A stretch of DNA of 30,951 nucleotides, taken from IMG/VR virus record IMGVR_UViG_2778261530_000010; one strand, written 5' to 3'. The translations under genes were made by a program, and so were the position numbers. This document shows positions 13,261-13,310 of the stretch, piece after piece. How positions within the stretch are numbered: position 1 is the first letter of the stretch; the number at the start of each line of letters is the position of its first letter. The stretch is from a virus. Taxonomy: Duplodnaviria; Heunggongvirae; Uroviricota; Caudoviricetes. The notes below the pieces were generated by a model. That model was given only the letters and a program-made list of their open reading frames with translations, ran no database searches and had not been told where the DNA came from.

Positions 13261-13310
13261 CCGAAAAATTTTCATAAATAGCGAAAATCCGCGCCGCTGC
13301 CGCCCCGTGG
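13261..13310. other. cos site (cosN with flanking cosB-side sequence), lambda-like
   Basis: The reverse complement of 13261-13290 (GGATTTTCGCTATTTATGAAAATTTTTCGG) is near-identical to the remembered lambda left-end sequence just inside cosN; the adjacent 13294-13305 (CCGCTGCCGCCC) aligns to the lambda cohesive end (AGGTCGCCGCCC) with 3 differences. Confidence 0.7.

What the first reader, a model, noticed from the sequence alone, without database searches (positions are those of the whole stretch)
13261..13310. Lambda-like cos site with a variant cohesive-end sequence
The sequence next to the Nu1 upstream region is near-identical to the remembered lambda left end, but the 12-nt segment aligned to cosN reads CCGCTGCCGCCC (rc GGGCGGCAGCGG) rather than lambda's AGGTCGCCGCCC (rc GGGCGGCGACCT). 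That predicts different cohesive ends and a possibly altered terminase nicking specificity.
Basis: partly seen in the sequence, partly recalled or inferred. Interest (0 to 1): 0.4.

Follow-up and report, generated by a model that had tools for sequence, protein, structure and literature searches.

The report
Phage-21-type cos site, variant sticky end
This is the DNA-packaging (cos) site of a phage-21-like prophage of cattle E. coli whose predicted 12-base sticky end differs from lambda's at four positions, all in the half of the site already known to vary naturally and to tolerate change, so it is an ordinary natural variant rather than a sign of a new cutting specificity.

Summary
On the minus strand, 188 nt upstream of an intact Nu1/TerS gene, the window has a complete lambda-like cos site. 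It has cosQ GGGTCCT (13334-13328), a 12-nt segment GGGCGGCAGCGG (13305-13294) flanked by CG on both sides, and a phage-21-type cosB (R3, IHF site, R2, R1; 13256-13139).

The 12-mer differs from lambda/21 (GGGCGGCGACCT) at positions 8, 9, 11 and 12. It is a recurrent natural allele, not a one-off:
- The same 21-mer occurs in 69 IMG/VR contigs.
- It is present in the Salmonella prophage Fels-1.
- It is one base from the Gifsy-1 allele.
- It is joined to at least four different cosB types.

The Feiss laboratory has published that bp 7-12 of cosN vary naturally. They also report that many mutations there have little effect, and that lambda-type terminases showed no preference between the lambda and N15 cosN.

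In related prophages, a TerL nuclease domain 99.6-100% identical to this one sits next to three different right-half alleles. So "different cohesive ends" is well supported by inference, and "altered nicking specificity" is not. No virion end data exist. I rate it a new member of a known kind, of low interest.

The parts
13328..13334 (-). cosQ heptamer GGGTCCT (packaging termination signal)
   Evidence: The only GGGTCCT in the window. It starts 29 nt upstream of the predicted top-strand nick, against 30 nt in lambda/21.
13306..13327 (-). cosQ-cosN spacer of the cdtI/mEp460 type (TCCGGTGGGGTGGTCTGCCACG), ending in the conserved CG nick flank
   Evidence: Near-identical to the right-end sequences of phages cdtI, phi458 and mEp460, and different from the lambda/21 spacer ...GATCCGACAGGTTACG.
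13294..13305 (-). 12-nt cohesive-end segment of cosN, GGGCGGCAGCGG. The predicted nicks are 5' of 13305 on the minus strand and between 13294 and 13293 on the plus strand.
   Evidence: Aligns without gaps to nt 1-12 of phage 21 and lambda. CG flanks lie on both sides. The same allele is found in Fels-1 and in 69 IMG/VR contigs. The nick positions are inferred, not measured.
13241..13256 (-). cosB R3 (TerS binding site), AAGCGTGTCGGTACTT
   Evidence: 15/16 identical to the annotated R3 of phage 21, at the same distance from cosN (bp 50-65).
13220..13232 (-). I1, IHF binding site, TAACTCATTGTTT
   Evidence: Aligns to the annotated phage 21 I1 (bp 74-86) with 2 mismatches.
13183..13198 (-). cosB R2 (inverted TerS site), AAGGTCCGACATGAAA
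   Evidence: 16/16 identical to the phage 21 R2.
13139..13155 (-). cosB R1, TTCCATGTCGGACCCTG
   Evidence: 14/17 identical to the phage 21 R1.
12569..13117 (-). Terminase small subunit gene (Nu1 / gp1 type, 182 aa)
   Evidence: Pfam Phage_Nu1, E = 2e-83. About 93% identical to phage 21 gp1. Residues 17-24 (RTIERWQS) are identical to phage 21 and differ from lambda. The ATG is at cos position 189, as in phage 21.
10681..12597 (-). Terminase large subunit gene (gpA / gp2 type, 638 aa)
   Evidence: Pfam GpA_ATPase (46-293) and GpA_nuclease (322-602). The N-terminal ~250 aa are >=91% identical to phage 21 gp2. The C-terminal 259 aa are only 70.7% identical to phage 21 and 75.7% to Gifsy-1, the best match among deposited phages. 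The Walker A motif KSARVGYT, the GIDSQ..RYE segment and the RRNEALDC motif are conserved.

Best explanation
The region is the packaging site (cos) of an apparently intact phage-21-type head module in a lambdoid prophage.

Proposed mechanism, by homology with lambda and phage 21:
- TerS dimers bind R3, R2 and R1 of cosB, with IHF bending the DNA at I1.
- This anchors TerL so that it nicks the plus (bottom) strand between 13294 and 13293.
- A second TerL nicks the minus (top) strand 5' of 13305.
- Strand separation leaves 12-nt 5' overhangs: 5'-GGGCGGCAGCGG at the Nu1-proximal (left) end and 5'-CCGCTGCCGCCC at the right end.
- Packaging runs from cosB toward lower window coordinates and terminates at the next cos, using cosQ and cosN.

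The four differences from lambda/21 lie in the cosB-proximal half of cosN (bp 7-12). Published work indicates that anchoring by TerS makes nicking there largely insensitive to sequence. The variant therefore changes the sequence of the sticky ends without needing a new nuclease specificity.

The site is a mosaic. The cosQ-cosN spacer and the 12-mer are of the type found in the cdtI/mEp460/Fels-1 group, and cosB and the terminase are of the phage 21 type. The junction lies at or in cosN. It could have arisen by recombination in the conserved core, or by end-to-end annealing of heterologous lambda-like chromosomes.

What is shown: the sequence anatomy, the homology, the recurrence of the allele and its mixing with other modules. 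What is inferred: the nick positions, function, and the origin of the mosaic.
For: Complete subsite set at phage 21 spacing:
- R3 at bp 50-65 (15/16 identical), R2 16/16 identical, and the TerS ATG at bp 189.
- TerS and TerL are intact, have the expected Pfam domains, and TerS has a phage-21-identical recognition helix.
- Downstream head and tail ORFs are present.

Conserved parts of cosN:
- The CG flanks and the first six bases, GGGCGG, are kept.
- This matches the conserved parts of cosN reported from the Vahanian 2017 survey, as cited in PMC9303873.

The allele is recurrent:
- 69 IMG/VR contigs carry the exact 21-mer.
- Salmonella prophage Fels-1 has CCACG|GGGCGGCAGCGG|CGCGG.
- Gifsy-1 has GGGCGGCAGCGT, and N15 has G at position 12.
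- About 19-27 of 5,426 complete E. coli genomes carry this cos type.

The allele mixes with other modules:
- It is joined to at least 4 cosB types.
- The window's terminase lineage (Nu1 >=97.8% identical; TerL C-domain 99.6-100% identical) is found with GGGCGGCAGCGG (20 loci), GGGCGGGAGCGT (2) and GGGCGGAAGGCG (2).
- Within this lineage, pairwise diversity is 0.000 at bp 1-6, 0.179 at bp 7-12 and 0.027 in the next 30 nt.

Literature (PMC4669245):
- Right-half differences are common in nature.
- C11G has no phenotype in lambda.
- The lambda and N15-hybrid terminases give equal yields on cosN-lambda and cosN-N15.
- Mismatched cohesive ends are viable.
Against: - No virion DNA ends have been determined for this prophage, or for any phage with this 12-mer, in the records and papers I could reach. 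The nick positions are inferred from alignment.
- No deposited phage has a TerL nuclease domain more than 75.7% identical to this one, so this TerL lineage is uncharacterised.
- In the IMG/VR sample, TerL C-domains at least 99% identical to the window's were never seen with the canonical lambda 12-mer. That would also fit co-adaptation, although tight linkage explains it equally well.
- The cosQ-to-nick distance is 29 nt rather than 30 nt, and this has not been tested with a phage-21-type terminase.
- The published tolerance data are for lambda TerL with one or two changes, not four.
- Homologous prophages can be defective: strain VG48B2 has a deletion fusing TerL to a tail gene.
Confidence: 0.8

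Rival explanations
1. Co-adapted terminase. The diverged TerL nuclease domain of this lineage has a changed nick-site preference matched to the variant right half of cosN.
For: The TerL C-terminal 259 aa are only 70.7% identical to phage 21 and at most 75.7% identical to any deposited phage. The closest, Gifsy-1, has the most similar cosN, GGGCGGCAGCGT. The N-terminal part of TerL is >=91% identical to phage 21, so divergence is concentrated in the nuclease half. No locus with a >=99%-identical C-domain carries the canonical 12-mer.
Against: The same C-domain (99.6-100% identical) occurs with three 12-mers that differ from each other at 3-5 of positions 7-12. The same 12-mer occurs with at least 4 other cosB/terminase types, including the distantly related cdtI/Fels-1-type TerL. 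Published genetics show bottom-strand nicking is set by TerS-R3 anchoring and is insensitive to right-half changes, and that the lambda and N15-hybrid terminases are not cosN-specific. Physical linkage within 2.6 kb explains the association.
Confidence: 0.1
2. Decayed relic. The cos site belongs to a cryptic prophage and the four changes are neutral decay of a site that is no longer used.
For: The element is a prophage. An IS3 sits about 470 bp from cosN. A near-identical prophage in strain VG48B2 has lost most head and tail genes. There is no evidence of induction.
Against: The changes are confined to the positions known to be tolerant, while cosQ, the CG flanks, bp 1-6, R3 and R2 are intact. 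The identical 12-mer recurs in many independent contexts and in Fels-1, which random decay would not produce. TerS, TerL and the head genes are open in the window.
Confidence: 0.06
3. The site is functional but the ends differ. Terminase nicks at other positions, for example giving a shorter or shifted overhang, so the aligned 12-mer is not the true cohesive end.
For: The cosQ-nick spacing is 1 nt shorter than in lambda. The variant has a different partial symmetry: by inspection of the sequence, 7 of 11 symmetric pairs against 5 of 11 in lambda. Related sites in a sister lineage have an ambiguous register.
Against: The R3-to-cosN distance, which published work says sets the bottom-strand nick, is identical to phage 21 (PMC9026076). 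The CG dinucleotides flanking both nicks are conserved. The phage cdtI record, with the same left flank, starts exactly at the aligned G1.
Confidence: 0.04

Closest known systems
cos of Escherichia phage 21 (OL657228; cosQ-cosN-cosB with R3-I1-R2-R1; terminase gp1/gp2)
   Same: Same architecture and spacing. cosB is 81% identical: R3 15/16, R2 16/16, and the TerS start at bp 189. The TerS recognition helix is identical, the cosQ heptamer is the same, and so are bp 1-7 and 10 of cosN and the CG flanks.
   Different: The cohesive-end segment differs at bp 8, 9, 11 and 12. The cosQ-cosN spacer is of another sequence type and 1 nt shorter. The TerL nuclease half is only about 71% identical.
cos of phage lambda
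   Same: cosQ, the left half of cosN, the CG flanks, the first ~30 nt right of cosN (CGCGG.TTTTCGCTATTTATGAAAATTTT), and the R3-I1-R2-R1 layout.
   Different: The R sequences and the TerS recognition helix are of the phage 21 specificity, not lambda's (RTIERWQS against RTIQNWQE). Four of the 12 cohesive-end bases differ. TerL is about 65% identical.
Salmonella prophage Fels-1 cos region (NC_010391, about 16.3 kb)
   Same: Exactly the same CCACG|GGGCGGCAGCGG|CGCGG.
   Different: It has GGTACTC where cosQ GGGTCCT would be, an unrelated cosB-side sequence, and a terminase small subunit annotated as similar to that of VT1-Sakai.
Salmonella phage Gifsy-1 cosN (GGGCGGCAGCGT), cited by the Feiss laboratory as differing from lambda at bp 8, 9 and 11
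   Same: Same changes at bp 8, 9 and 11. It has a lambda-family TerS/TerL with a three-R cosB. Its TerL nuclease domain is the closest among deposited phages, at 75.7%.
   Different: Position 12 is T, not G. The left flank is TTACG with 30-nt cosQ spacing. cosB and TerS differ (Nu1 about 75% identical).
Phage N15 / phiD326 cohesive ends (N15: GGGCGGCGTCCG)
   Same: A natural right-half variant with G at position 12. It has been tested experimentally: the lambda and N15-hybrid terminases gave equal yields on cosN-lambda and cosN-N15.
   Different: It differs from the window at bp 8, 9 and 11. N15 has a simple cosB with a single R3.
Phages cdtI, phi458 (GGGCGGGAGCGT) and mEp460 (GGGCGGGAGCGG)
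   Same: Nearly identical cosQ-spacer-left flank (GGGTCCTTCCGGTGGGGTGGCCTGCCACG) with 29-nt spacing. The mEp460 12-mer differs from the window's only at bp 7.
   Different: Their TerL is about 700 aa and only about 20-25% identical to lambda-type gpA. The cosB-side sequence is unrelated.

Membership tests
[quoted passage not shown] | A 12-bp segment with significant identity to GGGCGGCGACCT, flanked by conserved CG dinucleotides at both nick sites | tested here: met
   CG|GGGCGGCAGCGG|CG: 8/12 identical, bp 1-7 identical, no indel.
lambda-like cos site | The cosQ heptamer GGGTCCT about 30 nt upstream of the top-strand nick | tested here: met
   GGGTCCT at 13334-13328, 29 nt from the nick and the only copy in the window. 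The spacing is 1 nt shorter than in lambda, as in cdtI and mEp460.
lambda-like cos site | A complex cosB (R3-I1-R2-R1, with R2 inverted) between cosN and the TerS gene at fixed spacing | tested here: met
   All four elements align to the annotated phage 21 sites, with R3 at bp 50-65.
lambda-like cos site | Adjacent Nu1-family TerS and gpA-family TerL genes | tested here: met
   Pfam Phage_Nu1 at 2e-83, GpA_ATPase at 2e-52 and GpA_nuclease at 1e-68.
lambda-like cos site | Virion DNA carries 12-nt 5' single-stranded complementary ends generated at this site | not testable with these tools
   There are no virion end data for this prophage, and no deposited phage record carries this cos.
phage 21 packaging specificity | A TerS recognition helix and R-site sequences of the phage 21 type rather than the lambda type | tested here: met
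   TerS residues 17-24 are RTIERWQS, the same as phage 21 (lambda has RTIQNWQE). R2 is 16/16 and R3 15/16 identical to phage 21. Actual packaging specificity was not tested.
canonical lambda/21/phi80/434 cohesive-end sequence | A 12-mer identical to GGGCGGCGACCT | tested here: not met
   It differs at bp 8, 9, 11 and 12.
terminase with altered cosN (nick-site) specificity | A TerL variant strictly coupled to one cosN sequence | tested here: not met
   The same TerL C-domain (99.6-100% identical) is found with three right-half alleles, and the same allele with at least 4 cosB/terminase types. Biochemical specificity cannot be tested here.

The most novel reading that the evidence does not exclude
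The cohesive-end core may be a localised hotspot of diversification in this TerL lineage, not just a neutral variant. The window's lineage shows three right-half alleles. A sister lineage, with a TerL C-domain 92-95% identical, shows 11-14 alleles in which bp 3-9 vary, including the supposedly constrained left half, between invariant flanks. If these sites are functional, this TerL clade cuts at positions set almost entirely by flanking and TerS-bound sequences. The 12-nt overhang sequence would then be free to diversify, or be selected to. Possible causes are damage-driven mutation of the single-stranded ends, or selection against cross-annealing or recombination with co-resident lambda-like phages and cos-carrying satellites.
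Probability: 0.1. Interest if true: 0.5.

Novelty: new member of a known kind. Interest (0 to 1): 0.15.

Why it matters
For this locus the practical consequences are modest:
- The prophage's virion DNA should carry sticky ends that mismatch those of lambda, 21, phi80 and 434 at 4 of 12 positions. That matters for end annotation of such prophages, for cos-based cloning or packaging tools, and for predicting which co-resident phages or satellites can exchange ends.
- It adds a natural four-change example to the published picture that the cosB-proximal half of cosN is unconstrained.
- It illustrates that module boundaries in lambdoid mosaics can fall exactly at cosN.
- It does not point to a new enzyme activity.

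Tried and rejected
- **Literature search for the 12-mers.** Full-text searches for GGGCGGCAGCGG and GGGCGGGAGCG found no phage paper.
- **Key papers not held.** The cosN survey (Vahanian et al. 2017, Virology 509:140) and the cdtI phage paper (PMC1964815) are not in the library. I do not know whether this exact allele is tabulated there. Their content is used only as quoted by papers I could read.
- **Species-representative genome scan.** The exact 21-mer gave only 14 hits, none in an enterobacterial genome and many in high-G+C taxa such as Streptomyces, which I take to be chance matches. With one genome per species, the scan says nothing about distribution in enterobacteria.
- **Search for a deposited phage with this cos.** No record has this cos or this TerL nuclease domain. 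The best matches are phage 21 for cosB, mEp460 for the left flank plus cosN, and Gifsy-1 for the TerL C-domain.
- **One-off mutation or sequencing error.** Rejected because of recurrence.
- **Satellite (PICI) cos.** Rejected because TerS and TerL follow directly and cosB has phage 21 R sites.
- **IS3 inverted repeats.** The repeat tool at its default settings did not report them. I placed the IS3 ends by eye from the sequence.
- **First diversity script.** It was 2 nt out of register and was redone.

Full report
**What is there**

The window carries a lambdoid prophage whose late genes run on the minus strand. These are a gpA-type TerL (10681-12597), a Nu1-type TerS (12569-13117), and portal, protease, capsid and tail ORFs further down.

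Reading the minus strand upstream of TerS gives the following:

...ACGGGTCCTTCCGGTGGGGTGGTCTGCCACG | GGGCGGCAGCGG | CGCGGATTTTCGCTATTTATGAAAATTTTTCGGGAAAAAGCGTGTCGGTACTTCTCG...

BLASTN against 50,697 phage records finds the phage 21 cos region as the best match for the cosB side (81% over 176-179 nt, E = 3e-39). Nucleotide 1 of the phage 21 genome falls on window 13305. I transferred the annotated phage 21 subsites by pairwise alignment:

| Subsite | Window coordinates (minus strand) | Match to phage 21 |
|---|---|---|
| cosN 12-mer | 13305-13294 | 8/12 identical |
| R3 | 13256-13241 | 15/16 identical |
| I1 (IHF site) | 13232-13220 | 2 mismatches |
| R2 | 13198-13183 | 16/16 identical |
| R1 | 13155-13139 | 14/17 identical |
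| TerS ATG | 13117 (cos position 189) | same position as phage 21 |

cosQ GGGTCCT is at 13334-13328. It and the cosN core are each unique in the window. The refinement is that this is a phage-21-type cos, not a lambda-type one. TerS residues 17-24 (RTIERWQS) equal those of phage 21.

**How the 12-mer compares with known alleles**

I read these alleles directly from records:

| Phage | 12-mer | Source |
|---|---|---|
| lambda, 21 | GGGCGGCGACCT | |
| Gifsy-1 | GGGCGGCAGCGT | |
| N15 | GGGCGGCGTCCG | |
| cdtI, phi458 | GGGCGGGAGCGT | |
| mEp460 | GGGCGGGAGCGG | |
| Fels-1 | GGGCGGCAGCGG, with the same CCACG and CGCGG flanks as the window | |
| mEp213, LLS | GGGCGGCGCGCT | PMC12315714, |

The window allele is therefore the Fels-1 allele. 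It equals the Gifsy-1 allele plus T12G, and G at position 12 is also the N15 state.

**How common the allele is, and what it is linked to**

- The exact 21-mer CACGGGGCGGCAGCGGCGCGG occurs in 69 IMG/VR contigs.
- In those contigs it is followed by at least four unrelated cosB-side sequences: phage-21-like, Fels-1-like, and two cdtI/mEp460-like types.
- In complete E. coli genomes, about 19-27 of 5,426 carry this cos type. The listed hits are mostly from cattle-associated strains.
- Among the 80 IMG/VR loci with the closest TerS, the canonical 12-mer goes with a sister lineage (Nu1 93-95% identical).
- The window's own lineage (Nu1 >=97.8%) carries GGGCGGCAGCGG (18 loci), GGGCGGGAGCGT (2) or GGGCGGAAGGCG (2).
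- In an unbiased sample of 120 IMG/VR cos-like sites there are more than ten right-half alleles.
- In that sample, non-canonical alleles go mostly with the CCACG-type spacer and 29-nt cosQ spacing. The canonical allele goes with the TTACG-type spacer and 30-nt spacing.

**Does the variant imply a new nicking specificity?**

TerL is mosaic. Its first ~250 aa are >=91% identical to phage 21 gp2. The nuclease half is only about 71% identical to phage 21, and 75.7% to Gifsy-1 is the best match among all deposited phages.

However, I searched IMG/VR with the C-terminal 259 aa and read cos in each hit. C-domains 99.6-100% identical to the window's sit beside three different 12-mers: GGGCGGCAGCGG (20 loci), GGGCGGAAGGCG (2) and GGGCGGGAGCGT (2). 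Within this lineage, pairwise diversity is 0.000 at bp 1-6, 0.179 at bp 7-12 and 0.027 in the following 30 nt.

This matches what the Feiss laboratory has published (PMC4669245; PMC9026076):
- Differences at bp 7-12 are common among lambda-like phages.
- Many right-half mutations have minimal effect. C11G has none, whereas the symmetric G2C costs about 10-fold in yield.
- The asymmetry is attributed to TerS-R3 anchoring of the TerL that nicks the bottom strand.
- The lambda and N15-hybrid terminases give the same yield with cosN-lambda and cosN-N15.
- The CG flanks and cosQ are conserved.

The window keeps every constrained element and changes only unconstrained ones. My conclusion is that the sticky ends are different (an inference) and that no altered specificity is needed or indicated.

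**Origin**

The part from cosQ to the 12-mer is of the type seen in cdtI, mEp460 and Fels-1. Their TerL is only about 20-25% identical to lambda-type gpA. Everything to the right is of the phage 21 type.

The 12-mer allele travels with the left spacer more than with cosB, so exchange points cluster at cosN. Two routes are plausible. One is homologous recombination in the conserved GGGCGG/CGCGG core. The other is annealing and ligation of the right end of one phage to the left end of another. The published viability of mismatched cohesive ends makes the second route credible. Both routes are inference.

**Limits**

- No virion end data exist for this prophage, or for any phage with this 12-mer, in the records and papers I could reach.
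- The 29-nt cosQ spacing has not been tested with a phage-21-type terminase.
- An IS3 (about 13771-15029) lies roughly 470 bp to the right of cosN.
- One near-identical prophage, in strain VG48B2, is deleted for most head and tail genes.
- The main cosN survey (Vahanian et al. 2017) was not available. I cannot say whether this exact allele, or the combination with a phage-21-type cosB, is listed there.

**Verdict**

I rate it a new member of a known kind and of low interest (0.15).

The most unusual thing seen lies outside the window. A sister lineage has cos sites whose 12-mer varies at bp 3-9 between invariant flanks. That may deserve its own look.

Noticed in passing
IMG/VR loci L308-L341 and L345, e.g. 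L316, L308, L315, L309, L322, L340 (cos region about 190 nt upstream of the TerS gene): A sister group of lambda-like cos sites has a TerL C-domain 92-95% identical to the window's. Its flanks are conserved (...ACACCG(G/A)G | 12-mer | CGCAAAAACGCGCTATTTATGA), but the 12-mer is hypervariable. There are 11 alleles in 23 unique sequences (14 in a wider set), with bp 1, 2, 10, 11 and 12 fixed and bp 3-9 varying. Diversity is 0.29 at bp 1-6 and 0.26 at bp 7-12, against 0.013 in the next 30 nt. The sites are joined to at least 5 cosB types. The left half varies here, unlike the published rule. The nick register is ambiguous by 2 nt.
   Followed up: partly
window 13771-15029: A full-length IS3 (orfA 14664-14972, orfB 13801-14667, minus strand) is inserted about 470 bp to the right of cosN, between cos and the DUF1398/bor genes. 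The same junction is present in all 7 E. coli genomes that are 100% identical over 13100-13790. It adds about 1.26 kb to the DNA that would be packaged.
   Followed up: partly
window 10681-12597: TerL is mosaic. The ATPase half is >=91% identical to phage 21 gp2, but the nuclease half (Pfam GpA_nuclease, 322-602) is about 71% identical. One patch near residues 540-590 is only 48% identical. No deposited phage is closer than 75.7% (Gifsy-1).
   Followed up: partly
L162, L173, L177, L198, L204, L218 (two sites) and L180 (three sites): Some IMG/VR contigs carry two complete cosQ-cosN sites in opposite orientation only about 350-900 bp apart, each with a different cosB-side sequence. One contig has three direct cos sites within 11 kb. 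These could be adjacent satellites or phage remnants.
   Followed up: no
L280 (Fels-1, NC_010391 16185-16555), L282 (Gifsy-2), and IMG/VR loci L090, L091, L095, L097: In Fels-1-type cos regions, the position of the cosQ heptamer GGGTCCT is occupied by GGTACTC (AAAGGTACTCC(C/T)GG...). The right end of cosN and its flank stay lambda-like. Gifsy-2 has a still more divergent 12-mer region.
   Followed up: no
L363 (E. coli VG48B2, NZ_CP128584, locus 19194-21704): A prophage identical to the window across cos has a deletion that fuses the start of TerL to a tail-tip J-related gene. Copies of this prophage therefore decay in some strains. The element lies near potB/pepT, beside Rac-like genes (ydfD, dicB, hokD).
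   Followed up: no
window 15126-16965: To the right of cos and the IS3 lie a DUF1398 (YbcV-like) gene and a bor homologue on the plus strand, as in lambda. The endolysin is annotated as a glycoside hydrolase family 108 protein in the VG48B2 homologue (16372-16965, minus strand).
   Followed up: no
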